Below, piece after piece: positions 521 through 48,192 of a stretch of 50,316 nucleotides of DNA. Both the position numbers and the translations under genes were made by a program. Positions within the stretch are counted from its first letter, which is position 1; every line of letters begins with the position of its first letter. This DNA is from Candidatus Promineifilaceae bacterium. GTDB lineage: Bacteria; Chloroflexota; Anaerolineae; Promineifilales; Promineifilaceae. The stretch spans positions 1 through 50,316 of the forward strand of contig JBNKLQ010000001.1 of assembly GCA_050292445.1 (NCBI GenBank), given 5' to 3'. The notes under the pieces are model-generated. The model had not been told where the DNA came from. It searched no databases and saw only the letters and a program-made list of their open reading frames with translations.

Positions 521-600
521 TTACGAAGGAACAAAGAAACGAAGAAACAAAGCATTTGGCTTCTTTGTTCCTTTCTGCCTTCGTTTCTGCCTTCGTTTCT
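521..600. repeat. Hairpin repeat family 2 (ACGAAGGAAC...GAAGAAACAAAG...GCTTCTTTGTTCCTT), copy A, with internal 12-bp direct repeat TGCCTTCGTTTC x2
   Basis: Shares ACGAAGGAAC, GAAGAAACAAAG and GCTTCTTTGTTCCT blocks in the same order with 33979-34033. The blocks are mutually complementary, giving an imperfect stem-loop. Lies just after the stop at 510. Confidence 0.55.
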
Positions 601-6721: not shown

Positions 6722-7690
6722 ATGAAAGTTTCTGTCATTGCTACTGTAAAAAATGAGGGGGAGGCATTACGGCCGTTGTTGGATTCACTCATTCAGCAAA
6801 GCCATATGCCTGATGAAGTAATCATTTGTGATGGTGGCTCCACCGACACCACGCTGGAGATTTTAACCGAGTACAAATTGTGGCTGCCGCTTAAGATTTT
6901 GGTTGTGCCCAATGCCAATATTAGCCAGGGGCGTAATGTGGCGATTGCCGCCGCTGCCGGACCCATTATTGCGGCCACCGATGCTGGCGTGGTGCTGGCC
7001 CCGCACTGGTTGGAAGAACTCATTCAGCCCATTTTGCAGGGGGAAACGGCCGTTGCCAGCGGTTGGTTTGAACCGGATCCCTACACAGATTTTGAAGTCG
7101 TCATGGGGGCCACGGTCCTGCCCACGCGCCGCGAGATTGTGCCAGAGAAGTTTCTGCCCTCCAGCCGTTCGGTCGCTTTCCTTAAATCTGCCTGGGAAGA
7201 AGTGGGCGGCTATCCAGAATGGTTGGATTATAGTGAGGATTTGGTGTTTGATTTTGCCTTGCGTGAGCGGTACGGGAACTTTCCTTTTGTGGATACGGCC
7301 GTTGCCTACTTCCGTCCTCGCAGTGACCTAACCGGTTATTTCAAGCAATATTACAACTATGCCCGAGGCGATGGCAAAGCCAACTTGTGGCCCAAGCGGC
7401 ATGTGGTGCGCTACTTCACCTATTTGGTGGGACTCCCTTACATCCTGCGCCTGATCTGGCGCGAGAAGTGGCCCGGCTGGGTGCTTCTGCTGCTGGGCAG
7501 CGGCGTCTACTGCCAGCGGCCCGCGCAGCGGCTGTGGGGCAACACCTGGGGCTGGCGACCGCCATCCCGGCTGCGTGCGTTCGCCCTTATCCCCATCATT
7601 CGCCTAGTAGGCGATGTGGCCAAGATGCTGGGTTATCCGGTTGGCCTTATCTGGCGCTGGCGACATCGGGATTTGATCGGTAATCAGTAA
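6722..7690 (+). CDS. Family 2 glycosyltransferase
   Basis: VSVIATVKNEGEALRPLLDSL...VIICDGGSTDTT and ATDAG motifs. The stop lies inside the CAGT-unit repeat (…GGTAATCAGTAA). Confidence 0.8.
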   Translation: MKVSVIATVKNEGEALRPLLDSLIQQSHMPDEVIICDGGSTDTTLEILTEYKLWLPLKILVVPNANISQGRNVAIAAAAGPIIAATDAGVVLAPHWLEELIQPILQGETAVASGWFEPDPYTDFEVVMGATVLPTRREIVPEKFLPSSRSVAFLKSAWEEVGGYPEWLDYSEDLVFDFALRERYGNFPFVDTAVAYFRPRSDLTGYFKQYYNYARGDGKANLWPKRHVVRYFTYLVGLPYILRLIWREKWPGWVLLLLGSGVYCQRPAQRLWGNTWGWRPPSRLRAFALIPIIRLVGDVAKMLGYPVGLIWRWRHRDLIGNQ

Positions 7691-7784
7691 TCGGTCGATC
7701 AGTAATCAGTGGTAGTAGGCCAGCGAGCAATTGTGTGCTGAAGCGCTTCTACTGATGACTGTTTCACTGAATACCGATTACCGG
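7675..7784. repeat. CAGT-unit hairpin element, copy 1
   Basis: Left arm GATCGGTAATCAGTAATCGGTCGATCAGTAATCAGTGG. Right arm CTACTGATGACTGTTTCACTGAATACCGATTACCGG, which is its imperfect reverse complement. Confidence 0.65.
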
Positions 7785-7866
7785 CCAGAGCGACCATTAG
7801 AAATTTGCAAGAACCGATCCCCCCTGTCTTGACGCTCCCCAAACCCATGTTAAGATCACGTCACTA

Positions 7867-7892
7867 CAGCCGACAAGTCCGTCGGCTGTTTT
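7867..7892 (+). terminator. Rho-independent terminator-like hairpin
   Basis: CAGCCGAC-aagtcc-GTCGGCTG followed by TTTT. It may terminate the GT2 gene, or it may act as a leader hairpin for the gene at 7927. Confidence 0.4.
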
Positions 7893-7926: not shown

Positions 7927-9138
7927 ATGATTATTGAGCGAAAAGATCCACCCTATCCACGACGTGGCCCTTCATGCCTGCTGGTTATTTTTATTGGCAT
8001 TGGCATCTTTTTTGGCATCTTTGTGATCCAAAATGCGGAAGATGTGCGGGATGTGATTATTCCCACGCCCACGCCGGAACCGACGCGCTCAGCCACCGAA
8101 TTTGCTTTGTTAGCTGACATCGCTGAGCGTGATGGTGAATTGGAAGAAGCCGCCGGTTATTATGGTGAAGCGGTGCGTCTGGATGCCACCAATCCCGAAA
8201 TTTACATTCGTTACATCAACCTGCTCATCCGCATCAATGAGGCGGAGGAAGCGCTGGCACGGGCGGAAGAAGCGGCCGTTTTGGCCCCGGAGAATGATCG
8301 CATTTGGACGGCCGTTGCGGCGGCCCACATTGCCAATGGCGAACGCCTCAACGATGCTGGTGATCCCACTGCCGCCGACTTGCAATTTGCCGAAGCCTAT
8401 CGTGCCGCTGAAGCAGCTATCAGTATCAATGGACAAAATGCTGATGCATATGCTTATTCGGCTGCCGGGCTTGTATTGCAATTTGAGCCAGGACTTTATG
8501 AGGACGCACTGCTGCGCGCCCGGGATGCAACGGACCGGGATCCTGCAAACGCGCTTGGACGCCTTTATCTGGGCATTGTGTTAACCAACCAGGGTTTTTA
8601 TACAGCCGCCCGCGAGCAGTTCCAGCTAGGGCTTCAATCAGAGAAGTTGCCACAGCTTTATTATGAGCTGGGCTACAATTTTTTTGGTGATGGCAATGTT
8701 TCTGAAGCGATTTTGAGCTTTCAGGAAGCGGTAAGCATAGATCCCAATTTTGCCCCAGGGTATGATGGCCTGGCGCACATGTATTTGCAGTTGGGGCAAG
8801 ATAACTTGGCCGAAGAAAATGGCCTCCAATCTATTGCCCTGAATCCGAATGTGGCTCGCGCACACGGCCGTTTAGGAGAAGCCTATGTTCGCCTTAATAA
8901 ATATGAACAGGCCATTGAAGAGTTTAGCAAGGCTGTTGAACTGTACGGCGAGCCAACTGAGCTAAATGCGCGTTTCTTTTATCTGTTGGCCGATGCCTAT
9001 TTGCGCCAGGGTACCGAAAACTGTCCGTTGGCTGAACCCTACTTCCAGCAGGCAGCTGAGGTCAGCGTGGCCTATGCGGATGCGGCCCAGCAAGGGCTGG
9101 TTGAATGCCGCCGGGCTGCTTTGGAAAGCAGTCCGTAA
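7927..9138 (+). CDS. TPR-repeat protein with an N-terminal membrane anchor
   Basis: N-terminal hydrophobic helix CLLVIFIGIGIFFGIFVI. Repeated 34-residue A/Y/L patterns follow (AAGYYGEAVRLDATNPE, AILSFQEAVSIDPNFA, AHGRLGEAYVRLNKYEQAIEEF). Confidence 0.75.
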   Translation: MIIERKDPPYPRRGPSCLLVIFIGIGIFFGIFVIQNAEDVRDVIIPTPTPEPTRSATEFALLADIAERDGELEEAAGYYGEAVRLDATNPEIYIRYINLLIRINEAEEALARAEEAAVLAPENDRIWTAVAAAHIANGERLNDAGDPTAADLQFAEAYRAAEAAISINGQNADAYAYSAAGLVLQFEPGLYEDALLRARDATDRDPANALGRLYLGIVLTNQGFYTAAREQFQLGLQSEKLPQLYYELGYNFFGDGNVSEAILSFQEAVSIDPNFAPGYDGLAHMYLQLGQDNLAEENGLQSIALNPNVARAHGRLGEAYVRLNKYEQAIEEFSKAVELYGEPTELNARFFYLLADAYLRQGTENCPLAEPYFQQAAEVSVAYADAAQQGLVECRRAALESSP

Positions 9139-11280: not shown

Positions 11281-11343
11281 GTAATCGGTCATCAGTGGAT
11301 CAGTCATCGGTAAAAACCGAATACTGATTACCGAATACCGACA
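11281..11343. repeat. CAGT-unit hairpin element, copy 2
   Basis: GTAATCGGTCATCAGTGGATCAGTCATCGGT-aaaa-ACCGAATACTGATTACCGAATACCGAC. It lies between the groEL stop and the canonical terminator. Confidence 0.65.
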
Positions 11344-11355
11344 ACCTGCTTTTTT

Positions 11356-11395
11356 AGACCCGCTTTGGTTTAGCCAAGGCGGGTCTTTTCATTTT
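11356..11395 (+). terminator. Rho-independent terminator of groESL
   Basis: AGACCCGCTTTGG...CCAAGGCGGGTCT followed by TTTCATTTT. Confidence 0.75.
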
Positions 11396-19922: not shown

Positions 19923-20930
19923 ATGGTTTCCCAGCGGCGTTTATTTAATTTGTTAACGATGTTGATTTTGCTCAGCCTATTTGCTGTGGCCTGTGAACGG
20001 CCGCTTGGCGGCACAGATGATGGCACAACAGATGACCAAACTGGCCAGACTGAGGATGCCAATGCTGGCGGTGGTACGGATGGTAGTGTAGACACCACAA
20101 CCGATGGCGCTGTTGACACAACAACCACCGATAGCACAACTGAAACAACCACAGATGAGACCACTACCGAGACCACCGGTGATACGGCAACAGATGAGAC
20201 CGCTACCGACACCTCAGGTGAAACAGCTACCGACGAAAGTGGTGACACAACGGCTGAGGCTGGAGATGACAGTGAAGAGGCCGGTGGTGGTGTAGGTGAC
20301 GCAACGACCGATACTACTGATGATACGGCTACAGACACCACGGCTACTGATGAAAGCGCGGCTGAAGAAACCACTACAGAGGAGACGACAGCCGATGAAA
20401 CCAGTACCGACACAACTACCACGACAATTCCGGCAACACATACAGTTGCTGCTGGCGAAAACCTGTATCGGATTGGCCTCAAATATGGTATCTCCTGGGT
20501 AGCCATTGCGAATACCAACAATTTAGCCAACCCCAATATTTTGACCGTAGGCCAGGTTTTAAATCTGCCTGGTGGTTCAACGCCCAATCCCGGACCAACG
20601 CCATCACCGCAAACCGAAACAACCTACAAGGTGCAGCCTGGCGACAACTTGTTCCGGATTGGCCTGAAATTTGGCATTAGCTGGGTGCAAATTGCTGAAG
20701 CCAACGGCCTAGTAAACCCCAACGTGATCACCGTAGGCGACGATCTTAAAATCCCGGTAGATGCACCAGGGCCGGCACCCGCATTTTCCCATGTGGTTAA
20801 ACCGGGCGAAACACTCTTCCTCATTTCATTGCAGTATGGTGTGTCGTGGCCTTCTATTGCTGAGGCAAATAATTTGGCTTCACCCTACGTAATTTATGTG
20901 GGGCAGACGCTGGAGATTCCTGGCAAATAA
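19923..20930 (+). CDS. Secreted/lipoprotein LysM peptidoglycan-binding protein (three LysM domains) with a Thr/Asp/Glu-rich low-complexity region
   Basis: Signal with lipobox-like LFAVAC. Three LysM repeats: HTVAAGENLYRIGLKYGISW..., YKVQPGDNLFRIGLKFGISW... and HVVKPGETLFLISLQYGVSW... Confidence 0.88.
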   Translation: MVSQRRLFNLLTMLILLSLFAVACERPLGGTDDGTTDDQTGQTEDANAGGGTDGSVDTTTDGAVDTTTTDSTTETTTDETTTETTGDTATDETATDTSGETATDESGDTTAEAGDDSEEAGGGVGDATTDTTDDTATDTTATDESAAEETTTEETTADETSTDTTTTTIPATHTVAAGENLYRIGLKYGISWVAIANTNNLANPNILTVGQVLNLPGGSTPNPGPTPSPQTETTYKVQPGDNLFRIGLKFGISWVQIAEANGLVNPNVITVGDDLKIPVDAPGPAPAFSHVVKPGETLFLISLQYGVSWPSIAEANNLASPYVIYVGQTLEIPGK

Positions 20931-29366: not shown

Positions 29367-29386
29367 CAGTGATAAAGGAGAATCTC

Positions 29387-30178
29387 ATGAAGGAAGAACG
29401 AGCCCAGATTTTAGAGATGTTGCAAAAAGGAAAAATCACCGTGGATGAGGCGGATTTGTTGCTGGAAGCTTTGGGAGAAACGGCCGTACCGCACCAATCA
29501 TCCCCACCGGTCAAAAACATTACGCCGCCCGACCCGCTCAAGCTAGTCAAACCGCTGCATACCAACCCCAAACTCAGCGCTGAACAAATCCTCCAACTCA
29601 ACCGTGAAGGCGTAGATCCCGACTTCATTCGTGCGGTGCGCCACTTGCCGCACACGGCGCTTTCTGGCGACAACATTGTGCAGATGGCTGTTGAAGGTGT
29701 GGCCCCGGAGTTTATTACGGCCGTTGGTCAACTAGAAAACCTGCCCCTGACTGGGGACAACATCGTGCAAATGGGCATAGAAGGGGTTGACCCAGCCTTT
29801 TTACAAGCGCTTAGCGGGTTGGAATTATCTCAACTTTCCGGTGACAACATTGTGCAGATGGGCATAGAAGGGGTTGATTCGGACTTTCTCCGTGCAGTTA
29901 GCGGATTGAAGTCATCTGAGTTAACGGGCGACAACATCGTGCAAATGGGTATCGAAGGAGTTGATCCTGATTTTATACAAGCGGTTAGCGGATTAAAGGT
30001 GTCCGGGTTGACCGGCGACAACATTGTGCAGATGGGTATTGAAGGAGTGGATGAAGCATTCATTCAAAAAATGAAAGAAGCCGATTTTATCCAGGAGCTT
30101 GATGGTGATGCCTTTGTCCAAATGGCCATAGAAGGCATAGACGACGAACTGTTAAAAGAAACGATACAACTTTTGTAG
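29387..30178 (+). CDS. SHOCT-like N-terminal helix plus seven 29-residue tandem repeats (acidic paralogue), hypothetical
   Basis: RBS AAGGAG lies 6 nt before the ATG at 29387. N-terminus MKEERAQILEMLQKGKITVDEADLLLEAL, then a Pro-rich linker. Repeats of the form L(S/T)GDNIVQMGIEGVDPDFIQAVSGL follow. No signal peptide or TM helix. Confidence 0.75.
   Translation: MKEERAQILEMLQKGKITVDEADLLLEALGETAVPHQSSPPVKNITPPDPLKLVKPLHTNPKLSAEQILQLNREGVDPDFIRAVRHLPHTALSGDNIVQMAVEGVAPEFITAVGQLENLPLTGDNIVQMGIEGVDPAFLQALSGLELSQLSGDNIVQMGIEGVDSDFLRAVSGLKSSELTGDNIVQMGIEGVDPDFIQAVSGLKVSGLTGDNIVQMGIEGVDEAFIQKMKEADFIQELDGDAFVQMAIEGIDDELLKETIQLL
29573..30175 (+). repeat. Seven tandem 87-bp (29-codon) coding repeats
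   Basis: GG(C/T/G)GACAACAT(T/C)GTGCA(G/A)ATGGG(C/T)AT(A/C/T)GAAGG(G/A)GT recurs with an 87-bp period at about 29667, 29754, 29841, 29928 and 30015. Confidence 0.85.
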
Positions 30179-30217: not shown

Positions 30218-31411
30218 ATGAACGACGAACGCAAAATGATTTTAACCATGCTGGCCGAAGGCAAAGTCTCGGCTGATGAAGCTAATTTACTGCTAGAAGC
30301 CTTGGCCACTAGCCAAACCAAACCCACCCCGCCAATACCGCCCACACCGCCAAAACTGGTAACACCACCTGCCTTCGTGAACCCGGTGCGCTGGGAAAAT
30401 GAAGCGCCCCAACGCCACCATCGGCACCCGCACATTACGCCGCAATTTGTGGACGCGATGGCTCAAGTTGGGCTAAAAGATTTGACAGAAGATGAGCTGT
30501 GGCAGCTGCAAATTCATCATGTGCATCCTGGTTACATTCGTCGGCTGCGCGATGCCGGGTTGACAGACCTCAGCGTAGATGACATTGTGCAAATGTCTAT
30601 TCACCATGTGCGGCCAGAACTTGTTCAAGGGATTCGTAGTCTGGGGCTGACGCACCTCACGGTAGATGATGTGGTTCAGCTTGGTACTCACCATGTGCGC
30701 ACCGATTATCTGCGGCAGGTACAGGAGTTGGGCTTAACCGATCTTACCGTGGACGACATCGTCCAGCTCAGCATCCACCGCGTGCGCCCGGAAATGATTC
30801 AGGAAATCCGTGAGCTGGGGCTGGATGATTTGACCGTAGACGACGTTGTGCAGTTGGGCATCCACAACGTACGGCCGAATCTGGTACGAGAAGTGCGCAG
30901 CATGGGCCTGACTGACCTTACCATCGACCAGATCGTGCAGCTGGGCATCCACAACATCCGTCCAGACCTCATCCAACAGCTGCAAGCCACCAATCTAGGG
31001 CCATTCGATCTGGACACCATCATCAATATGGGCATTCATCACGTCACGGCCGATTACATCAAAACGATGCACAGCTTTGGTCTGCCTGATTTGGATGCCG
31101 AGCAATTGGTGAATATGCGGATTCACGGCGTTGATCCGCACTTTGTGGCTGGCATCATGGCGCTGAATCTGCCCGATGTAACGGCCGAAACACTCGTCAC
31201 CATGCGCATTCACGGCCTGCGGCCCCAACATGCCCAAAAACTGCAAGAGATTTTAGGCAAATCGCTCACAGCCGATGATTTGGTCACCATGAAAATCCAT
31301 GGCGTTTCCCCCAAATTTGCCACGCGCATGAAGGCAAAGATGGGCGATGCGCTTACGGCGGATGAACTGGTGAACATGATGATTCATGGTGAGCCAGAAG
31401 GGGCCTGGTGA
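30218..31411 (+). CDS. SHOCT-like N-terminal helix plus about 10.6 29-residue tandem repeats (His/Arg-rich paralogue), hypothetical
   Basis: RBS CAGGAG lies before the ATG at 30218. N-terminus MNDERKMILTMLAEGKVSADEANLLLEAL, then a Pro-rich linker. Repeats of the form LTVDDIVQLGIH(H/N/G)VRPxLIxEIRxLGLTD follow without a single indel. Confidence 0.75.
   Translation: MNDERKMILTMLAEGKVSADEANLLLEALATSQTKPTPPIPPTPPKLVTPPAFVNPVRWENEAPQRHHRHPHITPQFVDAMAQVGLKDLTEDELWQLQIHHVHPGYIRRLRDAGLTDLSVDDIVQMSIHHVRPELVQGIRSLGLTHLTVDDVVQLGTHHVRTDYLRQVQELGLTDLTVDDIVQLSIHRVRPEMIQEIRELGLDDLTVDDVVQLGIHNVRPNLVREVRSMGLTDLTIDQIVQLGIHNIRPDLIQQLQATNLGPFDLDTIINMGIHHVTADYIKTMHSFGLPDLDAEQLVNMRIHGVDPHFVAGIMALNLPDVTAETLVTMRIHGLRPQHAQKLQEILGKSLTADDLVTMKIHGVSPKFATRMKAKMGDALTADELVNMMIHGEPEGAW
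30482..31408 (+). repeat. About 10.6 tandem 87-bp coding repeats (diverged at nucleotide level)
   Basis: A strict 29-codon periodicity is seen in the translation from aa 89 to the C-terminus. Confidence 0.8.
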
Positions 31412-31490
31412 TCGATAATCAGTGTTCAGTAAGTCAGTGATCAGGGAGTCAGTTTTTACTGATTACCGATTACTGACTCACTGATTACTG
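31409..31490. repeat. CAGT-unit hairpin element, copy 3 (between convergent genes)
   Basis: TGATCGATAATCAGTGTTCAGTAAGTCAGTGATCAGGGAGTCAGT-tttt-ACTGATTACCGATTACTGACTCACTGATTACTG. It covers both flanking stop codons. Confidence 0.7.
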
Positions 31491-33882
31491 TTAAAATTGT
31501 TTCGCTATTGTGAAGATTTAGCAGGGGGAAGGTCTTACTGCTTTCGTCCAGGGGGAGACGGCCGTTTTCCAGCAAAAGTAGTCGTTGTGAAGTGAGTAAA
31601 TGAATGAGGGTGTCCTCAGGCTTGGGCACAGCAGCAACGAGATCGCTGCGTCGGGCCACCAGCGATTTACCTTTGTCGTTTTCTTTTTCTGGCTGAGTAA
31701 CCCAATTGGCCAGGAGCTGACGGCCATAGCCATCATTCGTAATGAGCAAGATGGGGTCGTGGGGTTGGCAGAGTACGGCCGTTTCCACCCGATCCCCCTT
31801 GGCCACGTTCATCAACTGCGTGCCAGAACCGCGCAAACTGCCCACCTGGCTGCGTAATCCTTTGCCGCTGCGCGTGAGCAGCAGCAGCGTTTCATCTCCC
31901 TCAGCACCATCCGCAAACACAGGCACGCCCGGCAGCGGTTGGTCAAACATCAACGGCACAGGGGCTTCAATGCTCTCAATCATGACACGGGTGGGATACG
32001 GCCGTGCCAACCCCGCCGAAGTCACTAGCAGCAGTTTCTCCTGTTGTTTAATATCGCGCCAGCGAGCCACCGTACACAACACTTCCCGTTTGCCCAATTG
32101 GAACACCTGATTCAGCGTTACCTTAGCCACCTGCTGTTCCGCCAACTGGCGCGGCGTCAGCAGCAAAAAGCGATAAGTGGAGGTGAGAATCAGCAGCTGT
32201 TCATCCCAATCGGCCGTAATTGCTCGTAGACCATTGCTCGGCAATCCCAATTCAGACAAATTCACAGATTCCGCAGATTTTTTCTCTAAATCTCTGCGCT
32301 CTCCGCATTCTCTGCGGTTAAAAATCTTCGGCAAGGGAACGGCCGTAATCGTTTTATCATCCCCCAGCACCACCAGCGCCCGGTCCGACTGGGCTGATTC
32401 CGCCTCAACCACGCCTTCCTGCACCTGGATGCGCCGCCGCAGCATGTCGATGTTGGCCGGGCTCACTTTCGGGCGGCTGGTTTCCACTGGTTCTGCCGAG
32501 GCTACATCAGCGGGCGTGTATGCCTGGGTCGTTTCTGTGCCATCGTCTAGCCCTTGGGCAAAGATGCCCAACCCGGCCGTGACGCTGCTAAACGTATCTA
32601 CGCGCCGAACTTTTTCCGGGCCAAACTTGTGCTGCAACATCTCGTCAAACGCTGGCACCTGGCTGGAGCCTCCGGTGCGAATGACGGCGTCAATTTGTTC
32701 TGGCTTTAGCCCGGATACTGCCATTGTTTCGTCGATGTGGGCATCAATCGCCTGAATTTCGGCGCGAATGATCGTTTCAAATTCGCTGCGGGTGACAAAC
32801 TCCTGCACCTTGAAGCCCGGCCCTTCCAGCGTAATCGTTGCCCCGCGCTTATCGGACAACGTGCGCTTGGCCTGCTCCACGATGTCGAACATTTGCAGGC
32901 CGTAGTTGCTAGAGACCAGGCTTTCTAGCGCTTCGATCTGGTAGCGGCGCTGGGCAGTTTGGGCGATGTCGCGCAGCATTCTTTTATTTTCGGCCGTTTG
33001 CAGTTCCAAAATGGTTTGCCAACTAGAAAATGAATCAAAAATCCAGTTGGGTACGGTAAGCGCCTTGTGCCGTGGGCCAAAGTAGCTACCCTGGCCAAAG
33101 TGGCGCGGCAGCTTGGCCCGCACCAGCTTCTGGTCGAACACGTCACCGGCCACGGGAATACCGCCGGTGGCCAACACCCGCTGCTGGGTGCGCTCGCCCA
33201 GGCGCATCACCGTCAGATCCAGCGTACCGCCGCCAAAGTCAAAGACGAGCACGTTTTGTGGTGTATCGATGCTGGCTTCGTAGCTGTAGGCGGCGGCAAT
33301 GGGTTCGCGTTGCAGATAGACGGTTTCGTAGCCCGCCTGGAACGCCGCTTGCAGTAGACGCGCCTCGGCCAGCCGATCTTTGTCTGGGTCGGTGGCAAAG
33401 CGGACGGGGCGGCCTAACACCACCTGGCGCAGCGGTTGGCCCAGATGCTGTTCGGCGCGCGTTTTAGTGATGTTGAGGTAGAGGGCGATCAAATTTTCTA
33501 GCGAGTAATAATGCTGGCCGATGACGGTGCCGGGGTAGTCGGCATCGCGCAGACTGGTTTTGATGGAGAGCAGCAGCCGCCCTGGCGAGTAGACATCGAC
33601 GTAGACGTAGACATCGGTGACGTAATGCATGTCGGCTCCGCGAATTTCAATCTCGCCGATCCACACCTTTTTGGTTTTGACGGGACGACCGACGTTTTGC
33701 TCGAAGTAGCGGTTGAGGGCGTCGCGGCCAATATAAATTTGCTGCTCGTTGGTGATGTAGAGCGCGGTACGAGCGACGCGTGGGTTATTGTTGGCTGGAT
33801 CGAGTGGGATAATGTTCACGGAACGGCCGTTATACACCGCCATCCCTGAATTTGTGGTCCCAAAATCCATCCCCACAATCAT
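31456..33882 (-). CDS. Hsp70-family ATPase (actin-like nucleotide-binding domain) with a long non-canonical C-terminal region
   Basis: Phosphate-1 motif IVGMDFGTTNSGMAV, phosphate-2 motif VLVFDFGGGTLDLTVM and adenosine motif AVIRTGGSSQVPAF. The C-terminal ~340 aa is unlike the DnaK substrate-binding domain. Confidence 0.85.
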   Translation of the reverse strand: MIVGMDFGTTNSGMAVYNGRSVNIIPLDPANNNPRVARTALYITNEQQIYIGRDALNRYFEQNVGRPVKTKKVWIGEIEIRGADMHYVTDVYVYVDVYSPGRLLLSIKTSLRDADYPGTVIGQHYYSLENLIALYLNITKTRAEQHLGQPLRQVVLGRPVRFATDPDKDRLAEARLLQAAFQAGYETVYLQREPIAAAYSYEASIDTPQNVLVFDFGGGTLDLTVMRLGERTQQRVLATGGIPVAGDVFDQKLVRAKLPRHFGQGSYFGPRHKALTVPNWIFDSFSSWQTILELQTAENKRMLRDIAQTAQRRYQIEALESLVSSNYGLQMFDIVEQAKRTLSDKRGATITLEGPGFKVQEFVTRSEFETIIRAEIQAIDAHIDETMAVSGLKPEQIDAVIRTGGSSQVPAFDEMLQHKFGPEKVRRVDTFSSVTAGLGIFAQGLDDGTETTQAYTPADVASAEPVETSRPKVSPANIDMLRRRIQVQEGVVEAESAQSDRALVVLGDDKTITAVPLPKIFNRRECGERRDLEKKSAESVNLSELGLPSNGLRAITADWDEQLLILTSTYRFLLLTPRQLAEQQVAKVTLNQVFQLGKREVLCTVARWRDIKQQEKLLLVTSAGLARPYPTRVMIESIEAPVPLMFDQPLPGVPVFADGAEGDETLLLLTRSGKGLRSQVGSLRGSGTQLMNVAKGDRVETAVLCQPHDPILLITNDGYGRQLLANWVTQPEKENDKGKSLVARRSDLVAAVPKPEDTLIHLLTSQRLLLLENGRLPLDESSKTFPLLNLHNSETILTVISESVIGNQ

Positions 33883-42606: not shown

Positions 42607-43440
42607 ATGGCAAAAATAGGCCGATACGAAATCATTGAGGAGTTAGGCAATGGCGAAATGGCGTCTGTCTACCTGGCGCGCGATCCGTTTATCAAGCGGC
42701 ATATCGCCATTAAAATTTTGGCCTACGAGCTCACCCAAGACCCGCTTTTCCTCGACTTCTTTTACCAGGAAGCAGAAGCCATTGCTTCTTTGGAACACCC
42801 CACCATCGTCCCTATTTATGATTTTGGCTTACATGGGGTTCAGCCTTACATTGTCATGCGCCATATGCCCAATGGCTCGCTGAAAAACAGGCTCAAGCGG
42901 CGTGGTTTGACGCGACAAGAGCTGTGCGACCTGATGGGACGTATTGCCGAAGGATTGGATGCTGCTCATCAGGTGGGCATTGTCCATCGTGATGTGAAGC
43001 CCTCGAATATCTTATTTAATCAAGCGTACGAAGCGTTTTTGACGGATTTTGGATTGGCCAAATTTACGCAGCGAAAATCGGGCATTACGGGGACGTTGTT
43101 GGTAGGTACACCAGAATATATGAGCCCTGAGCAGGCCCAGCGTTTGCGGGTAGACGGCCGTTCCGACATCTACTCCCTGGGTGTCATTCTCTACCTCATT
43201 TTGACAGGCAAGCACCCTTTTTGGGCCGCTACTCCTTCCCGTACCGCTTCAGCCCACATTCATGCACCTGTGCCCAGCGTGCGCAGCGTTATTACCGAGC
43301 TGCCCGCCATGTGGGACGAGATTATTGGCCAGGCGTTGGCCAAATCCTCCGAGGATCGCTATCAATCAGCCGAGGCGCTGGCCCGGGATGTAGCCCTGGC
43401 CACCCGTGGCCAATGGCATTTGCGTACGGCTCAACCGTAA
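42607..43440 (+). CDS. Ser/Thr protein kinase (catalytic domain only)
   Basis: GNGEMASVY, AIKIL, HRDVKPSNILF, DFGLAKF and GTPEYMSPEQ. Confidence 0.88.
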   Translation: MAKIGRYEIIEELGNGEMASVYLARDPFIKRHIAIKILAYELTQDPLFLDFFYQEAEAIASLEHPTIVPIYDFGLHGVQPYIVMRHMPNGSLKNRLKRRGLTRQELCDLMGRIAEGLDAAHQVGIVHRDVKPSNILFNQAYEAFLTDFGLAKFTQRKSGITGTLLVGTPEYMSPEQAQRLRVDGRSDIYSLGVILYLILTGKHPFWAATPSRTASAHIHAPVPSVRSVITELPAMWDEIIGQALAKSSEDRYQSAEALARDVALATRGQWHLRTAQP

Positions 43441-43527
43441 GTGATCGGTGTTCAGTATTCGGTAATCAGTAATCAGTGTTCAGATTGATATACTGATTAC
43501 TGACCTACTGATCACTGTTTACTGATT
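43441..43527. repeat. CAGT-unit hairpin element, copy 4 (between convergent genes)
   Basis: GTGATCGGTGTTCAGTATTCGGTAATCAGTAATCAGTGTTCAG-attgatat-ACTGATTACTGACCTACTGATCACTGTTTACTGAT. Confidence 0.7.
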
Positions 43528-44316: not shown

Positions 44317-45180
44317 TTAGGCGTTGAACTGTTGGATGGCGTTGGTCATGACGGCCGTATCCGGCTTCTGTCCCGTCCACAAAGCAAACGCCTTGGCTCC
44401 TTGCTGTACCAGCATTCCCAATCCGTTAATTGCCCAACAACCCGCTGCCTGGGCCTGCTGCATCAGCCGGGTGTGGGGCGGATTGTAAACCAGATCGTAT
44501 ACGATGGCTTCGGCAGGGAAAGGCAAGTTAGTCGGCCAGATCGAGGTCATATCGTTGGGGGTCATGCCCAGCGGCGTGCTGTTGATGATGAGCGGTGCGG
44601 ACAAAGTGGCAGAAACTTTTTCTAAATCGCTCAGTGGTTGGCTAATGAGCTGCGCTTGGGGAAGATACGGCCGTAAATCCGCAATCAACTCCGCTGCCTG
44701 GTCACCCCGTCGAGCTAAAATGTGAACCCGTGCCTCTGACTTGGCTAGTCCATAAGCCACCGCTCGGGCTGAGCCACCAGCACCTAACAGCAAACAATCT
44801 CGTCCGGTCACAGAAACGCCCTGTGCTTGCAAGTCGGCTAAAAAGCCAGACCAATCGGTGTTGTGCCCAGTAAGACGGCCGTTTTCGCCCACCACAATTG
44901 TATTCACCGCGCCAATCGCCTGTGCCCCCGGTTCTAATTCGTCTAGCAAGGGCATGACGGCTTGCTTGTGGGGGACCGTCACGTTTACCCCACGAAAACC
45001 GAGGGCAGATAGGCTGGAAACGGCCGTTGCCACATTTTCTGGTGCAACAGGCAGCGGTACGTAGGCCCAATTCAACCCTAAAGCTTCTGCCGCTGCGTTG
45101 TGCATTGCTGGGCTAAAACTGTGGGAAACGGGCCAGCCAATGAGGCCGATAAGTTGGGTCTTGCCGTTGATTGGGATCAT
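44317..45180 (-). CDS. aroE: Shikimate dehydrogenase
   Basis: GWPVSHSFSPAMHNAA, GVNVTVPHKQ, LLGAGGSARAV and VYDLVYNP. Confidence 0.92.
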   Translation of the reverse strand: MIPINGKTQLIGLIGWPVSHSFSPAMHNAAAEALGLNWAYVPLPVAPENVATAVSSLSALGFRGVNVTVPHKQAVMPLLDELEPGAQAIGAVNTIVVGENGRLTGHNTDWSGFLADLQAQGVSVTGRDCLLLGAGGSARAVAYGLAKSEARVHILARRGDQAAELIADLRPYLPQAQLISQPLSDLEKVSATLSAPLIINSTPLGMTPNDMTSIWPTNLPFPAEAIVYDLVYNPPHTRLMQQAQAAGCWAINGLGMLVQQGAKAFALWTGQKPDTAVMTNAIQQFNA

Positions 45181-45184
45181 TTTC

Positions 45185-45284
45185 CAGTGTTCAGTAGGTC
45201 AGTAATCAGTAGGTCAGTAATCAGTAGGTCAGTCGGTGCGGTCGGATTACTGAATACTGTTTCACTGAATACTGATTACTGATC
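45185..45284. repeat. CAGT-unit hairpin element, copy 5 (intercistronic, aroA-aroE), with a 15-bp tandem sub-repeat
   Basis: Left arm CAGTGTT CAGTAGGT CAGTAAT CAGTAGGT CAGTAAT CAGTAGGT CAGTCGGT. Right arm ATTACTG AATACTG TTTCACTG AATACTG ATTACTG ATC. Confidence 0.75.
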
Positions 45285-46610
45285 AATCCATTCCATATTT
45301 GCGCCGAGGGATTGCATCATTTCTACAAAGCCGGGGAAGCTGTCGGCGATGCAGCTTGCGTCATGGACCAGGGTCAGGCCGTGAGTGATTAGTCCGGCCA
45401 CAGCCAGCGACATGCCTAGCCGGTGATCGTCATGGCTGTTTACCTCGCCGCCAAACAGCCGCATTGGCCCCGCTACCGAGAAACCGTCGGGACTTTCCAT
45501 CATTTCCACGCCCAGCTTGCGTAGCTCGCCTGCCAAAACCGAGATGCGGTCCACTTCCTTCACGCGTAGTTCGGCAGCATCACTCACCTGGCTAACGCCT
45601 GCGGCCTGCGTGGTGGCCACGGCCCAGACGGGCAGCTCGTCGATGCCGCGCACCACGGTGTGGCCATTAACATTTGTGCTGTGCAGCTCGCTAAAAGAGA
45701 CGGTGAGGTCGCCCAGCCGCTCGCCGCCGCTGAGATGTTCATTGTGTACGGTGAGTTCGGCCCCCATCGCTTGCAGCATATCCAGAATGCCGGTGCGGGT
45801 CTCGTTAAGGCCCACGCCCGCGATGGTGATTTGGGAATGGGGCACGATGGCGGCAGCGACCAGAGGGAAAGCGGCAGAGGAGGGATCGGCAGGAACGGTG
45901 AGGTCTAACGGCCGTAACCGCCAACCACCCTCCGGCGCAGCGGGCAAAATCACCCAATCCCCTTCAGTCTGTACCGGCACGCCCATCGCTTGCAGCATCC
46001 GCTCCGTGTGGTCACGGGCTGGGCCAGGCTGGTAGACGCGGGTTTTGCCAGTGGCGTACAACCCGGCCAGCAGGATGGCGCTTTTCACCTGGGCGCTGGC
46101 TACGTTCATACGGTATTCAAAGCCATGTAGCTGGCTGGGGGAGATGGCGAGGGGGCAACGGCCGTTTTCGGCCACAATATTCGCCCCCATTTCGCTCAGG
46201 GGGGCGGTGATGCGGCGCATGGGTCGTTTGCGCAGCTGTTCGCTGCCGTCTAGCACGCTGGGGAAACTTTGCCCGGCCAATAGTCCAGCCAGCAGGCGCA
46301 TGCCTGTTCCGGCGTTGCGGCAGTCCAATGGCTGCGTGGGCACTTGCCAACCATGCAGCCCACGCCCCTCAATGGTTAAATCCCAGGCAATGTCCGAGCG
46401 TTTGTCAATTTGCACAGAAACACCGAGGTCCTGGATGATTTGCAACGTGGCCAGTGTATCCCCCGCAGGCAGCCAGCGGCGAACGTGGCTGGTGCCTTCA
46501 GCCAGCGAGGCCAGCATTACCGCCCGGTGGCTAATTGACTTGTCGCCAGGAACCGAGATAATGCCTTGCAGCGGCGTTTTTTGGGGGCGAACCAGTAGTT
46601 GTTCACTCAT
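45276..46610 (-). CDS. aroA: 3-phosphoshikimate 1-carboxyvinyltransferase (EPSP synthase)
   Basis: VPGDKSISHRAVMLASLAEGTS, LDCRNAGTGMRLLAG, RPMRRI and DHRLGMSLAVAGL. Confidence 0.95.
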   Translation of the reverse strand: MSEQLLVRPQKTPLQGIISVPGDKSISHRAVMLASLAEGTSHVRRWLPAGDTLATLQIIQDLGVSVQIDKRSDIAWDLTIEGRGLHGWQVPTQPLDCRNAGTGMRLLAGLLAGQSFPSVLDGSEQLRKRPMRRITAPLSEMGANIVAENGRCPLAISPSQLHGFEYRMNVASAQVKSAILLAGLYATGKTRVYQPGPARDHTERMLQAMGVPVQTEGDWVILPAAPEGGWRLRPLDLTVPADPSSAAFPLVAAAIVPHSQITIAGVGLNETRTGILDMLQAMGAELTVHNEHLSGGERLGDLTVSFSELHSTNVNGHTVVRGIDELPVWAVATTQAAGVSQVSDAAELRVKEVDRISVLAGELRKLGVEMMESPDGFSVAGPMRLFGGEVNSHDDHRLGMSLAVAGLITHGLTLVHDASCIADSFPGFVEMMQSLGANMEWIDQ

Positions 46611-47428
46611 CGTTTGAAGCGGGCCATGCCCTGGGCTATTTTTTGCGTCTTCTTATCGCTGCGGTCGGCATCCAGGCGGGCTACGGGCGGACGGCCCTGG
46701 TTTTTGGCTTCCAACAGGGCGTGATGCACCAGTAGATGGCTATGCCGCCGCATAAATTCTGTGTGGCTGGCGTCGGGGTTTTCTGCCAAATAGGCTTCTT
46801 TGGCCGCTTCCATCTTCTCTTTGATGTCTGTGATTTCGGCGCTGGGCAGGTAAGCGGATGTAGTGCTAAATTCCAGGCGGTCGGCCACAGGCACCAGGCG
46901 AGTAAGAATCAATTCGCCTACTTCCACATTACCGCGTCCACCAGCTTCATACACCGCAAATGTTTCATCTGTGAAGGTGTCGCGCAGCTGCAATTTCTGC
47001 CCTTCATAAGCCATCAGTTCATAAAGCGCTCCCGCACCGGCGTTTAACCAATCGGCCGCAATTTTTTGCTGATGCACAGATAAATCTGCCATCTGCTCTT
47101 CGGCATACAGCTGGATCAACCGTTGACCATTGGCTGGCGTGTAATCAAATACAAACCAGTCGAAGAAGCGTAATGCTTCTGGCTGGCTCATTTGCTCTGC
47201 ATTGGATGCGTCGTAATACTCATTCCAGTAGAGGGGCAGGGCGTTGGCGAAATCTTCAGCGAACCGTTCGTCGCGGGCAAATTTGAGCAGATCGCGCCGA
47301 ATAAAGCCAGCGGCACGCTGAATGTGGCTGCGCTCCTTTTCGGCTGCCTGGTCTTCTTTCATGTGGCATTTTTTGTACTTTAGGCCGCTGCCACAGTAAC
47401 AGGGATCGTTTCTTCCGGGTTTGCTCAT
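46607..47428 (-). CDS. SEC-C metal-binding motif protein
   Basis: N-terminal GRNDPCYCGSGLKYKKCH. Both ends overlap the neighbouring genes by 4 nt. Confidence 0.8.
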   Translation of the reverse strand: MSKPGRNDPCYCGSGLKYKKCHMKEDQAAEKERSHIQRAAGFIRRDLLKFARDERFAEDFANALPLYWNEYYDASNAEQMSQPEALRFFDWFVFDYTPANGQRLIQLYAEEQMADLSVHQQKIAADWLNAGAGALYELMAYEGQKLQLRDTFTDETFAVYEAGGRGNVEVGELILTRLVPVADRLEFSTTSAYLPSAEITDIKEKMEAAKEAYLAENPDASHTEFMRRHSHLLVHHALLEAKNQGRPPVARLDADRSDKKTQKIAQGMARFKR

Positions 47429-48192
47429 AATTCACCTTCCAACTGTGCCAAAATAGGCAGCAGTTCTTCTAATTTGGAGATTGTAAAATTCGGCCGTACG
47501 CCGTCAAGTTGCCGCTCAAGATGGGGTGGCGACATCAGTACGCTGGTTATGCCCGCGTCGTTGGCCCCGGCAATATCGTTGGCTGGACGGTCGCCGACAA
47601 AGACGGATTCTTCTGGCTGCACGTCCAATAACTCTAAAGCATGCCAATAAATAAAGGGATGTGGCTTCATAAAACCCACATCACCAGAGGTAAGTCGCAC
47701 GTCTAGATAGTCTAGAATGCCATAAGCGCGCAATTCTACATCACGCATCCACATGGGCTGTATGGCATTGGTAATAAGGCCAATTTTGTAGCCACTGTTT
47801 TTGAGCTGTTCCAGTACGGGGAGGGTGTCATCGAAGGGGGCGACGCCGGGCACGGTGTGCCAATTATAGGCGCGCAGGACAGCATCAATATCGAGCTGGG
47901 CTTCGTCCAGTCCGCAAGCGAGCAGAAAATCTTGCATGACCTGGGCAAAAGAGATCATGGTCCACTCTTTTTTGGCTTCTGTCCAGGCCTGAATTAAAGT
48001 TCTGCGGAAGAGGTTCCAAAACTCATCAAAAGGGGGCAAGGTATATTCTGCGGCAGCGAGGTAACGGTAGACGTTTTGCATATGTTCCGTTTCAACGGCC
48101 GTCATATCCCCTTCCAGCCCTGACCAATCGATCAAGGTGTCGTCCATATCAAACAGAACGGCTTTGATGCGCTGGTTTTCTCGGTCACTCAT
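47425..48192 (-). CDS. HAD-family hydrolase
   Basis: Motif I AVLFDMDDTLIDW, motif II ITNA and motif IV VGDRPANDIAGANDAG. Confidence 0.82.
   Translation of the reverse strand: MSDRENQRIKAVLFDMDDTLIDWSGLEGDMTAVETEHMQNVYRYLAAAEYTLPPFDEFWNLFRRTLIQAWTEAKKEWTMISFAQVMQDFLLACGLDEAQLDIDAVLRAYNWHTVPGVAPFDDTLPVLEQLKNSGYKIGLITNAIQPMWMRDVELRAYGILDYLDVRLTSGDVGFMKPHPFIYWHALELLDVQPEESVFVGDRPANDIAGANDAGITSVLMSPPHLERQLDGVRPNFTISKLEELLPILAQLEGEL

What the first reader, a model, noticed from the sequence alone, without database searches (positions are those of the whole stretch)
45185..45284. CAGT-unit hairpin element family (5 copies in 50 kb), here intercistronic between aroA and aroE
Five loci share an architecture: 7675-7784, 11281-11343, 31409-31490, 43441-43527 and 45185-45284. 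The left arm is made of 7-8 nt units that each contain CAGT (CAGTAAT, CAGTGAT, CGGTAAT, CAGTATT, CAGTAGGT). A short loop follows. The right arm is made of the complementary ACTG units (ATTACTG, AATACTG, TCACTG). Together they give a 30-50 bp imperfect stem. The copy here has a 15-bp tandem sub-repeat, CAGTAGGTCAGTAAT, about 2.5 times. It sits inside an apparent operon (HAD - SEC-C - aroA - element - aroE - secreted protein), much like REP/BIME elements that modulate segmental mRNA stability in enterobacteria. The unit structure does not match any repeat family I know.
Basis: seen in the sequence. Interest (0 to 1): 0.7.

Follow-up and report, generated by a model that had tools for sequence, protein, structure and literature searches.

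The report
Facing heptamer-array hairpin repeats, Chloroflexota
The feature is a real, fast-changing intergenic repeat built from two facing runs of 7-base units that can fold into a long hairpin. It belongs to a kind already described in cyanobacteria and Xanthomonas whose function is still unknown, and here it fills the gap between aroA and aroE in a Chloroflexota genome.

Summary
The window holds exactly five loci where at least 3 CRGT units at 7-8 nt spacing are followed by at least 3 ACYG units; simulated windows give none. All five fold into long imperfect hairpins on both strands and lie against stop codons. The host is a Promineifilaceae/Ca. Leptofilum-like Chloroflexota. The elements are not REP/BIME, MITEs or intrinsic terminators. 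They match a described but unexplained kind, convergent pairs of tandem heptanucleotide arrays: cyanobacterial STRR hairpins, Xanthomonas GGGAATC pairs, and more distantly TAACTGA repeats. The TCAGT-core form also occurs in at least 10 bacterial phyla and in tailed-phage contigs. Related Chloroflexota use other units, so the core is a lineage flavour. Sites persist among relatives while unit number and sequence turn over. Only the periodic core pairs; I found no fitted stem and no sense-strand bias. The arrangement is strongly polar, with the TCAGT, G-rich arm first, and this is unexplained. The aroA|aroE junction carries heptamer arrays of different units in 11-13 of 39 relatives. The likeliest role is a co-transcribed intercistronic stem-loop affecting stability or translational coupling. 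That role is inferred, not shown.

The parts
45185..45284 (.). Main copy: a heptamer-array palindrome filling the aroA-aroE intercistronic gap
   Evidence: RNA minimum free energy is -33.7 kcal/mol on the transcribed (-) strand and -40.7 on the + strand, z about -6.
45185..45233 (+). Arm with 7 CAGT units, including CAGTAGGTCAGTAAT x2.9. This is the 3' arm (ACUG units) in the aroA-aroE mRNA.
45234..45248 (.). Central loop region (CGGTGCGGTCGGATT)
45249..45284 (+). Arm with 5 ACTG units. This is the 5' arm (CAGU units) in the mRNA. Its outermost unit supplies the last two codons and the stop of aroA.
45276..45278 (-). aroA stop codon (UAA), lying inside the base of the predicted stem
45178..45180 (-). 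aroE start codon (AUG). It lies 4 nt after the last core and 8 nt after the last paired base.
7675..7784 (.). Copy 1, after the glycosyltransferase gene. The stop TAA at 7688-7690 lies inside the first units. It has 5+5 units and a roughly 35-nt centre that is itself a small hairpin.
11281..11343 (.). Copy 2, starting 6 nt after the groEL stop, with 4+4 units. A separate canonical terminator follows at 11356-11386.
31409..31490 (.). Copy 3, between convergent genes. The stops of both genes (31409-31411 and 31456-31458) lie in or at the element.
43441..43527 (.). Copy 4, between convergent genes: the Ser/Thr kinase stop at 43438-43440 and the stop of the 261-aa protein at 43519-43521, which is inside the right arm.

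Best explanation
**What it is (shown).** The feature is one copy of a dispersed family of convergent tandem-heptamer pairs. An array of T-C-R-G-T plus 2-3 variable bases is followed by a short centre and then an array of the complementary ACYGA units. This is the same kind of element as cyanobacterial STRR hairpins and the convergent GGGAATC pairs of Xanthomonas, here in a Chloroflexota (Promineifilaceae-like) genome.

**How it changes.** It is shown that each arm changes independently by gain or loss of whole units. The inferred mechanism is replication slippage, as in a variable-number tandem repeat. Sites persist between species while unit number and sequence turn over.

**What it does here (inferred).**
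- It is transcribed as part of the HAD-SECC-aroA-aroE mRNA.
- Because the core recurs every 7 nt, the two arms can zip in many registers into a stem of about 35-40 bp with periodic mismatches.
- The base of that stem contains the aroA UAA and ends 8 nt before the aroE AUG.
- It does not terminate transcription.
- Its most likely effect is that of an intercistronic stem-loop: a barrier or processing site that sets the relative stability of the aroA and aroE segments.
- It may also keep aroE initiation dependent on ribosomes terminating at aroA. A terminating ribosome would melt the outer helices and free the 3' arm next to the AUG.

**Polarity (inferred).** The G-rich arm comes first. I read this as the result of a filter against C-rich, unpaired RNA directly after stop codons, which would load Rho.
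For: **Architecture and non-randomness:**

**Host:**

**Placement**
- The stop of aroA comes from the first unit, and the AUG lies 4-8 nt after the last unit.
- All other junctions of the operon are 4-nt overlaps or 12 nt.
- In 51 co-directional junctions of other genomes the stop-side gap has a median of 4 nt against 25 nt on the start side. The stop is closer in 37 cases and the start in 13 (p = 0.0009). In 24 of 51 the element fills the junction.

**Not a terminator**
- There is no T-tract in the flanks.
- The terminator scan does not flag the elements.
- The groEL copy is followed by its own canonical terminator.

**Turnover at conserved sites**
- The GT2 and groEL sites carry elements in genomes of 90% and 79% nucleotide identity, with whole-unit indels and CAGT to CGGT shifts.
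- The aroA|aroE site carries a CGGT version in L247.
- That junction holds period-7/8 arrays with at least 9 different units in 11 of 39 relatives, against 8 of 91 flanking junctions (p = 0.0066).

**Phage evidence:** tailed-phage structural operons carry an element in nearly every intercistronic gap.

**Literature for the kind and for the same proposed roles**
- PMC2670836: STRR 7-bp repeats form hairpins between hupS and hupL; transcript stability or translational coupling is proposed.
- PMC4692102: convergent heptamer pairs lie close to the stop on the coding strand, are transcribed, vary in length between species and keep their site.

**G-rich arm first:** 5 of 5 in the window, 69 against 20 in genome tiles, 141 against 30 in viral contigs. 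All 4 motif-agnostic pairs agree.
Against: - There is no evidence of selection on an RNA stem. Permuting the order of units in one arm does not lower stability (29 better, 27 worse, p = 0.33).
- Arms of one element are no more complementary than arms of different elements in the same locus (0.174 against 0.217).
- The transcribed strand is not the more stable one (23 against 26, and 49 against 55). For this copy the sense strand folds less well (-33.7 against -40.7 kcal/mol).
- Presence at the aroA|aroE junction is patchy. L248 and L253 (79% aroE identity) have a short GC hairpin instead, and many relatives have a plain gap of 20-60 nt.
- No transcript data were available.
- The Rho-filter and coupling steps are inference only.
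Confidence: 0.5

Rival explanations
1. The arrays are a purely mutational or selfish by-product. Heptamer arrays nucleate and expand by polymerase slippage and persist only where they do little harm: untranslated DNA just after stops, and hairpin-forming pairs that keep stop and start close together. They have no function for the host.
For: - No register-specific complementarity, no arm-arm co-adaptation and no sense-strand bias.
- Rapid turnover, decay (L005, L249) and replacement (L248/L253) at orthologous sites.
- Different lineages use unrelated units.
- Heptanucleotide simple-sequence repeats are reported as over-represented in many bacteria and attributed to slippage (cited in PMC4679880, and PMC4692102).
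Against: - Placement within a few nt of stops, not merely 'somewhere intergenic'.
- Strong polarity that stem thermodynamics cannot explain.
- Recurrence at the aroA|aroE junction with different units.
- Compact phage operons devote about 13% of their sequence to such elements.
Confidence: 0.3
2. The arrays are binding sites for an oligomeric sequence-specific protein that reads one short motif per subunit at 7-nt spacing on single-stranded RNA or DNA. This would work like TRAP on (G/U)AG repeats or HutP on UAG-N4 repeats. The hairpin would be the competing, unbound conformation, giving a switch for translation or termination of the neighbouring genes.
For: - A fixed period with a conserved 5-nt core and free spacers within a genome.
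- Strong polarity of the core: 327 forward-then-reverse pairs against 1 reversed pair in held loci, and at least 120 against 15 stretches in mirrored scans of viral contigs.
- ACTGA-type arrays directly upstream of start codons in Beggiatoaceae, for which a binding protein was proposed (PMC4679880).
- The comparison with TRAP and HutP is from my own knowledge and is an analogy only.
Against: - No candidate protein was identified.
- The unit differs between related lineages (only 4 of 62 period-7/8 arrays in an unbiased Chloroflexota sample have the CRGT core). A single conserved factor is therefore unlikely, and each lineage would need a co-evolving reader.
- Hundreds of unrelated genes would fall under one regulator.
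Confidence: 0.15
3. It is a Rho-independent (possibly bidirectional) transcription terminator or attenuator.
For: Long stable hairpins directly after genes. Two of five window copies lie between convergent genes.
Against: - No U/T tract after either arm, in the window or in the 201 flanks profiled.
- The stems are AT-rich with periodic mismatches.
- The copy studied is inside an operon, directly before a start codon.
- The groEL copy is followed by a separate canonical terminator.
- The terminator scan does not flag any copy.
Confidence: 0.05
4. It is a REP/BIME-type element mobilised by a RAYT transposase, or a MITE.
For: Dispersed, extragenic, palindromic and at 3' ends. In some phage contigs identical loop sequences recur at several loci, which implies copying.
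Against: - No GTAG/CGTC terminal tag and not 20-40 nt long, which are the criteria in PMC3733652.
- Arms are tandem arrays, not unique terminal inverted repeats.
- The centres of the five window copies are unrelated.
- No target-site duplication is visible when filled and empty junctions are compared.
- No transposase among the 20 window proteins scanned.
Confidence: 0.05

Closest known systems
Cyanobacterial STRR (short tandemly repeated repetitive) heptanucleotide sequences and the hairpins they form, for example between hupS and hupL
   Same: - Tandem 7-bp units, dispersed in intergenic and intercistronic DNA.
- Able to form hairpins.
- Function unknown, with transcript stability or translational coupling proposed (PMC2670836).
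- Nostoc loci retrieved here show the same TCAGT-then-ACTGA architecture (L154, L206). Nostoc 7120 has ttgtcagttgtcagttgtca ... ccactgactactgac downstream of hupS (PMC2408588).
   Different: - The host is Chloroflexota, not a heterocystous cyanobacterium.
- The units are CAGTAAT, CAGTGAT, CGGTAAT and CAGTAGGT, not the published STRR units. As I recall them, those are CCCCAGT, TTGGTCA and CAACAGT; two of them share CAGT.
Convergent GGGAATC / GGGGA(C/T)T heptamer repeat pairs of Xanthomonas and Nostoc (Rehm et al. 2015, PMC4692102)
   Same: - Heptamer simple-sequence repeats, about 90% intergenic.
- Much closer to the upstream gene's stop (sometimes overlapping it), with the G-rich array on the coding strand.
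- 70-75 convergent pairs per genome that could form stem-loops.
- Rare between divergent genes.
- Site conserved but length variable between species.
- Transcribed.
   Different: - Those units are G-tract, quadruplex-forming sequences. The window's units are AT-rich with a CRGT core and cannot form G4.
- Nearly every array in the window is paired, whereas many Xanthomonas arrays are single.
TAACTGA direct repeats of marine Beggiatoaceae, some Cyanobacteria and Bacteroidetes (MacGregor 2015, PMC4679880)
   Same: - A heptamer with the same ACTGA core.
- Intergenic, with indels in steps of 7 nt between strains.
- Arrays in 'forward' sense immediately upstream of start codons, as the ACUGA-type arm is before the aroE AUG.
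- Patchy distribution across phyla.
   Different: - Those are almost all direct arrays; one inverted set was found among 170.
- They lie mostly next to start codons rather than stops.
- The unit sequence is fixed as TAACTGA.
REP/BIME elements of enterobacteria
   Same: Extragenic palindromes at 3' ends and within operons.
   Different: REPs are 20-40 nt single palindromes with a GTAG or CGTC tag, and the GTAG type is associated with RAYT transposases (PMC3733652). None of these features is present here.

Membership tests
Convergent tandem-heptamer pairs (STRR-type hairpins; Xanthomonas GGGAATC pairs) | Tandem arrays of a 7-nt unit, at least 3 units long | tested here: met
   TRF finds period 7 (some 8) with 3.7-6.1 copies in every arm. 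The chain scan agrees.
Convergent tandem-heptamer pairs (STRR-type hairpins; Xanthomonas GGGAATC pairs) | Two arrays of complementary units close together in convergent orientation, able to form a stem-loop | tested here: met
   5 of 5 loci. Folds have z = -4.3 to -7.4.
Convergent tandem-heptamer pairs (STRR-type hairpins; Xanthomonas GGGAATC pairs) | Intergenic, much closer to the upstream stop than to the next start, with the G-rich array on the coding strand after the stop | tested here: met
   All 7 facing stops in the window lie within about 10 nt of the element edge or inside the element. The wider set gives a median of 4-6 nt to the stop. G>C in the first arm in 5 of 5 window copies, and 69 against 20 in genome tiles.
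Convergent tandem-heptamer pairs (STRR-type hairpins; Xanthomonas GGGAATC pairs) | Site conserved between related species while unit number and sequence vary | tested here: met
   GT2, groEL and aroA|aroE sites in L001, L002, L006 and L247.
Convergent tandem-heptamer pairs (STRR-type hairpins; Xanthomonas GGGAATC pairs) | Unit sequence equal to a published one (STRR1-3, GGGAATC, GGGGAYT) | tested here: not met
   The units are CAGTAAT, CAGTGAT, CGGTAAT, CAGTATT and CAGTAGGT. They share only CAGT or ACTGA with some published units.
Convergent tandem-heptamer pairs (STRR-type hairpins; Xanthomonas GGGAATC pairs) | Host is a filamentous cyanobacterium (STRR in the strict sense) | tested here: not met
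   GroEL relatives are named Promineifilaceae, Ca. Leptofilum, Ardenticatenaceae and Anaerolineae.
REP/BIME | A single imperfect palindrome of 20-40 nt with a GTAG or CGTC tag at one end | tested here: not met
   The elements are 63-110 nt and built of arrays. Their ends read DAGT...ACTH. Criteria are from PMC3733652.
REP/BIME | Association with a RAYT (IS200-like Y1 transposase) gene | not tested
   Only 20 window proteins were scanned against Pfam, with no transposase among them. The whole genome is not available.
Intrinsic (Rho-independent) terminator | A G+C-rich stem followed directly by a U tract | tested here: not met
   No T-run in the flanks. The scan flags no copy but does flag the true groEL terminator at 11356-11386.
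MITE | Unique terminal inverted repeats, target-site duplication and a conserved internal sequence among copies | tested here: not met
   The centres of the five copies are unrelated. No duplication is seen at filled against empty aroA|aroE junctions.
TAACTGA direct repeats (MacGregor 2015) | Direct repeats of exactly TAACTGA, mostly ending a few nt upstream of a start codon | tested here: not met
   The units differ and the arrays are paired and inverted. Only the aroE-proximal arm resembles that placement.
Any Rfam family | A covariance-model match | tested here: not met
   No match at gathering scores, and none at E<=5 over the elements.

The most novel reading that the evidence does not exclude
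Convergent heptamer-array pairs may be one pan-bacterial and phage class of 'operon punctuation'. They would include the TCAGT-core form, found here in at least 10 phyla and filling nearly every intercistronic gap of some tailed-phage structural operons. On this reading their strict polarity (G-rich, TCAGT arm always transcribed first) reflects a shared mechanism that reads direction. One candidate is protection of untranslated RNA after stop codons from Rho, coupled to unmasking of the next start. STRR, GGGAATC pairs and TAACTGA repeats would then be local faces of the same system, and arrays at sites such as aroA|aroE would be maintained for very long times while their unit sequence drifts.
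Probability: 0.2. Interest if true: 0.75.

Novelty: new member of a known kind. Interest (0 to 1): 0.45.

Why it matters
Tandem-heptamer arrays were first reported in cyanobacteria decades ago and still have no demonstrated function. They are not in Rfam and are not annotated by genome pipelines. This work shows three things:
- The kind extends to Chloroflexota and, in its TCAGT form, to Acidobacteriota, Bacteroidota, Planctomycetota, Verrucomicrobiota, Proteobacteria and phages.
- The elements often supply stop codons and C-terminal residues of core genes such as aroA.
- The arrangement has a strong polarity that hairpin stability cannot explain.

If the polarity reflects a rule of bacterial gene expression (a Rho filter or translational coupling), these elements would be a widespread, unannotated layer of operon organisation. 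If they are only slippage products, they still matter for gene calling, for assembly, and as fast-evolving strain markers.

Tried and rejected
**Searches that found nothing**
- Rfam at gathering scores and at E<=5: no family matches.
- Exact look-up of the aroA product: not on record.
- Elhai 2008 and Mrazek 2007: not held, so they could not be read.

**Ideas tested and rejected**
- Fitted RNA stem: rejected after the unit-order permutation, the arm-against-arm comparison and the sense/antisense tests.
- Universal stop cassette. ACTGA arms carry TGA in all three frames. That holds for this flavour but not for other heptamer pairs in relatives, for example TGCGTAT/TCACGAA and GGGACTG/CCAGTCC. 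It is therefore rejected as a general rationale.
- A universally conserved TCAGT core read by one conserved factor. My collection scans searched for TCAGT, so they could only find it. A motif-agnostic sample of relatives shows the CRGT core in only 4 of 62 period-7/8 arrays. The idea is downgraded.
- Polarity explained by stem stability. The duplex is identical whichever arm comes first, so this is rejected by reasoning.

**Analyses not trusted or not done**
- The intergenic enrichment test with my greedy ORF caller is rejected as unreliable, because ORFs over-extend through stop-free arrays. Homology-anchored junction windows replace it.
- No covariance model was built. Copies vary in unit number and have no fixed columns, and no whole genome was available to search. 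A chain scan and TRF did the counting instead.

**Analogies from memory, not pursued as membership claims**
- Tc1/mariner CAGT ends or excision footprints.
- Integron attC sites.
- DNA uptake sequence pairs.
- HutP and TRAP.
Full report
**1. The observation**

I scanned for chains of at least three C[A/G]GT cores spaced 7-8 nt, and likewise for AC[T/C]G. The scan finds exactly five forward and five reverse chains in the 50-kb window. Each forward chain is followed within 60 nt by a reverse chain: 7678-7783, 11286-11340, 31420-31490, 43446-43524 and 45185-45281. One hundred first-order Markov simulations of the window gave a mean of 0.14 chains and never a pair.

Tandem Repeats Finder reports period-7 (some period-8) arrays in every arm. 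It also reports the 15-nt sub-repeat TCAGTAGGTCAGTAA at 45191-45233, with 2.9 copies at 100% match. Nine of the eleven period-7/8 arrays in the window are of this type.

Every copy folds into a long imperfect hairpin on either strand. Energies run from -23 to -50 kcal/mol, z from -4.3 to -7.4, and no shuffle folds as well. The main copy also folds with DNA parameters. The longest perfectly complementary stretch in the main copy is only 13 nt. Because the design is its own reverse complement, 'CAGT arm on the left' is true on both strands and says nothing about orientation.

**2. Context**

Pfam confirms the operon on the minus strand:
- HAD hydrolase, 47425-48192
- SEC-C protein, 46607-47428
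- EPSP synthase (aroA), 45276-46610
- shikimate dehydrogenase (aroE), 44317-45180
- a 261-aa protein with a signal-peptide-like N-terminus

The other junctions are 4-nt overlaps or 12 nt. The 95-nt aroA-aroE gap is filled exactly by the element. The last two codons and the UAA of aroA come from the first unit (...AUU GAU CAG UAA), and the aroE AUG follows the last core by 4 nt.

The other four copies also abut stops:
- The glycosyltransferase gene ends inside copy 1.
- groEL ends 6 nt before copy 2.
- Copies 3 and 4 lie between convergent genes, whose stops are at or inside the arms.

GroEL relatives at 97-100% identity are named Promineifilaceae, Ca. Leptofilum, Ardenticatenaceae or Anaerolineae, so the host is a filamentous Chloroflexota.

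**3. What it is not**

- No Rfam family matches, at gathering scores or at E<=5.
- The elements have no T/U tract on either side.
- A terminator scan does not flag them. It does flag a canonical terminator at 11356-11386, directly after the groEL copy. The element there lies in the 3' UTR, upstream of the real terminator.
- They lack the 20-40-nt size and the GTAG/CGTC tag of REPs (PMC3733652).
- They lack the unique terminal repeats, conserved interior and target duplication of MITEs.

**4. Relatives and turnover**

Loci carrying the same or near-identical GroEL were fetched. They align to the window at about 90% (L001, L002) and about 79-80% (L005, L006) nucleotide identity.
- The glycosyltransferase and groEL sites carry elements in L001, L002 and L006, and degenerate one-armed remnants in L005.
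- Differences are whole-unit indels, for example 22 nt (three units) missing in L002.
- Unit content also changes. In L006, and at the aroA|aroE site of L247 (aroE 90% identical), nearly all units are CGGT/ACCG in both arms.
- L249 keeps a decayed copy.
- L248 and L253 have instead a short GC hairpin, CCTGGGGC-TGAA-GCCCCAGG.

Sites therefore persist while unit number and sequence change quickly.

**5. Breadth**

A stricter three-plus-two pattern has a chance expectation of about 0.5 hits in 596 Gb by my arithmetic.

The 120 genome tiles come from the following groups:

| Group | Tiles |
|---|---|
| Acidobacteriota | 42 |
| Chloroflexota | 19 |
| Bacteroidota | 15 |
| Planctomycetota | 10 |
| Verrucomicrobiota and allies | 10 |
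| Proteobacteria | 10 |
| Cyanobacteria (Nostoc, Amazonocrinis) | 3 |
| Other lineages | 11 |

No tile comes from Actinomycetota. Bacillota are represented only by one Selenomonadaceae tile.

Nearly all are (NN-TCAGT)n, then a loop, then (ACTGA-NN)n. The spacers differ between genomes and even between the arms of one element. In 65% of ends the outermost unit is DAGT rather than CAGT.

Contig L053 encodes a capsid-like protein, a head-tail adaptor and neck proteins. It carries an element in nearly every intercistronic gap, as does L036.

One caveat matters. These scans searched for TCAGT, so they say nothing about other units. In 310 kb of aroE-centred metagenome loci from Chloroflexota-like relatives, period 7 is the commonest tandem-repeat period. 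Only 4 of 62 period-7/8 arrays there have the CRGT core. Other lineages use GTGTCAA/CACTTGA, GGGACTG/CCAGTCC, GATTGGA/CAATCTC, TGCGTAT/TCACGAA, CGTAGTG/CTACGCA and AGGCGTA/TCACGGA, often as inverted pairs. The core is a lineage flavour. What is general is the period and the facing-pair design.

**6. Position, measured beyond the window**

I used a simple longest-ORF gene caller that reproduces the window's genes.
- 95 of 101 elements in the genome tiles are intergenic.
- Facing gene ends are 105 3' ends against 72 5' ends.
- The median distance to a facing stop is 6 nt.
- Convergent junctions are enriched (29% against 21%) and divergent ones depleted (8.5% against 18%).

An ORF-independent check looked for an open frame of at least 120 codons ending near the element. 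It finds such a frame at 125 of 180 element sides. Stops peak at offsets -7, -4, +3 and +10 from the first core, so they are made from the outer units. In 51 co-directional junctions the stop is closer than the start in 37 against 13 (p = 0.0009). This holds although the caller biases starts towards the element. In 24 of the 51 the element fills the junction.

**7. Is the stem selected?**

Three tests say that only the periodic core matters.
- Permuting the order of units in the right arm leaves the folding energy unchanged: 29 elements more stable than the permutation mean and 27 less stable, p = 0.33.
- The chance that a unit of one arm is the exact complement of a unit of the other arm is no higher within an element (0.174) than between different elements of the same locus (0.217). 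The 15-nt sub-repeat of the main copy, for example, has no counterpart in the other arm.
- In co-directional junctions the transcribed strand is not the more stable one: 23 against 26, and 49 against 55.

The share of CGGT units in one arm does correlate with the share of ACCG units in the other (r = 0.45). Any process acting on a reverse-complement-symmetric element would produce that correlation.

**8. Polarity**

In all held loci the TCAGT array precedes the ACTGA array 327 times, and the reverse order occurs once. Most of the 15 have G-rich spacers in the first arm.

More generally, the first arm has G>C and the second C>G:

| Set | First arm G>C | First arm G<C |
|---|---|---|
| Window | 5 | 0 |
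| Genome tiles | 69 | 20 |
| Viral contigs | 141 | 30 |

The skew also holds in the spacers alone. All four objectively paired arrays with other units in the unbiased sample have the G-rich arm first. The duplex is the same whichever arm is 5', so stem stability cannot explain this. A process that reads direction must be involved.

**9. The aroA|aroE junction**

aroA lies directly upstream of aroE in 39 of the fetched relatives. Eleven of these junctions carry a TRF-detectable period-7/8 array, or thirteen with L247 and L249 seen by eye. At least nine different units are used. Typically a G-rich array follows the aroA stop and a C-rich one precedes the aroE start. Matched windows after aroE and before aroA carry arrays in 8 of 91 cases (odds ratio 4.1, p = 0.0066). 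Either an old array has persisted while its unit drifted, or the site is colonised repeatedly. A gene-caller-based version of this test was unreliable and is not used.

**10. Comparison with what is known**

- PMC2670836 states that STRR sequences of 7-bp repeats form hairpins in filamentous cyanobacteria, for example between hupS and hupL. It says their function is unknown and that they may raise transcript stability or confer translational coupling.
- PMC2408588 lists ttgtcagttgtcagttgtca and ccactgactactgac downstream of hupS in Nostoc 7120. This is the same architecture as Nostoc loci L154 and L206.
- PMC4692102 describes GGGAATC heptamer repeats in Xanthomonas. They are about 90% intergenic and average 28 nt from the upstream gene against 160 nt from the next. 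They lie on the coding strand after stops, sometimes overlapping them. There are 70-75 convergent pairs per genome, few between divergent genes. Site is conserved while length varies between species, and the repeats are transcribed.
- PMC4679880 describes TAACTGA direct repeats just upstream of start codons in Beggiatoaceae, some Cyanobacteria and Bacteroidetes, and proposes a binding protein.

The window's family meets every structural and positional feature of this kind. It differs in unit sequence and host phylum, so I file it as a new member of a known kind.

**11. Mechanism**

Shown: the architecture, the placement, the turnover by whole units, the absence of terminator features and the polarity.

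Inferred:
- The element is co-transcribed with aroA and aroE.
- It folds through its periodic cores into a mismatched stem. The base of that stem holds the aroA stop and ends 8 nt before the aroE start.
- It acts as an intercistronic stem-loop, either as a stability barrier or processing site, or by making aroE initiation depend on ribosomes that terminate at aroA and melt the outer helices.

The G-rich-first rule may reflect removal of variants that expose C-rich unpaired RNA to Rho just after a stop. This is my inference from the established preference of Rho for C-rich, G-poor untranslated RNA.

The main rival is that the arrays are slippage products that are merely tolerated. The lack of any fitted stem and the patchy presence favour it. 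The placement, the polarity, the junction recurrence and the phage operons argue against it.

Noticed in passing
window 11356-11386: A canonical intrinsic terminator (14-bp stem plus a T tract) follows groEL, downstream of heptamer copy 2. In L001 the stem sequence differs but still pairs, which indicates compensatory changes.
   Followed up: partly
window 7829-7889: A promoter-like TTGACG-16-TAAGAT is followed by a hairpin, ACAGCCGACAAGTCCGTCGGCTGT plus TTTAT, in the leader of the TPR gene 7927-9138. The hairpin is conserved in L001, L002, L005 and L006. It could be a leader or attenuator structure.
   Followed up: no
window 29748-30052: An 87-nt tandem repeat, 3.5 copies at 75% match, lies inside ORF 29369-30178. 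This corresponds to a 29-residue protein repeat.
   Followed up: no
window 20127-20225: A 39-nt tandem repeat, 2.5 copies, lies inside ORF 19923-20930. The orthologue in L001 is annotated with LysM domains.
   Followed up: no
window 526-600: Two short tandem repeats (AAGAAACA x3.4 and TTCGTTTCTGCC x2.8) lie in the intergenic region 511-653. They are unrelated to the heptamer family.
   Followed up: no
L248 2009-2037 and L253 2472-2500: In these relatives (aroE about 79% identical) the aroA-aroE gap holds a short GC hairpin, CCTGGGGC-TGAA-GCCCCAGG, instead of a heptamer element.
   Followed up: partly
L250 2787-2891; L251 2790-2855; L257 2819-2841; L275 3059-3098: Period-7/8 arrays lie inside the aroE-homologous region of some relatives, where the tblastn alignment is 15-30 residues longer than the query. 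Arrays may be tolerated as in-frame insertions, or the gene may be split.
   Followed up: no
L053 1-9130 and L036 1-7300: These tailed-phage contigs carry a TCAGT-type element in nearly every intercistronic gap, about 13% of the sequence in L053. L053 encodes capsid-like, head-tail adaptor and neck proteins. The same loop sequences recur at several loci, for example AAAGGCAAAAA.
   Followed up: partly
L330, L332, L334, L335, L338, L341: Rare reverse-order elements exist, with the ACTGA arm first. They are short (2-3 units per arm) and mostly have G-rich spacers in the first arm, which fits a G-rich-first rule rather than a rule on the core.
   Followed up: partly
window 31456-33882 (-): An 808-aa protein has an N-terminal Hsp70/actin-like ATPase domain and a long C-terminal region with no confident family. 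Its stop lies in heptamer copy 3.
   Followed up: no
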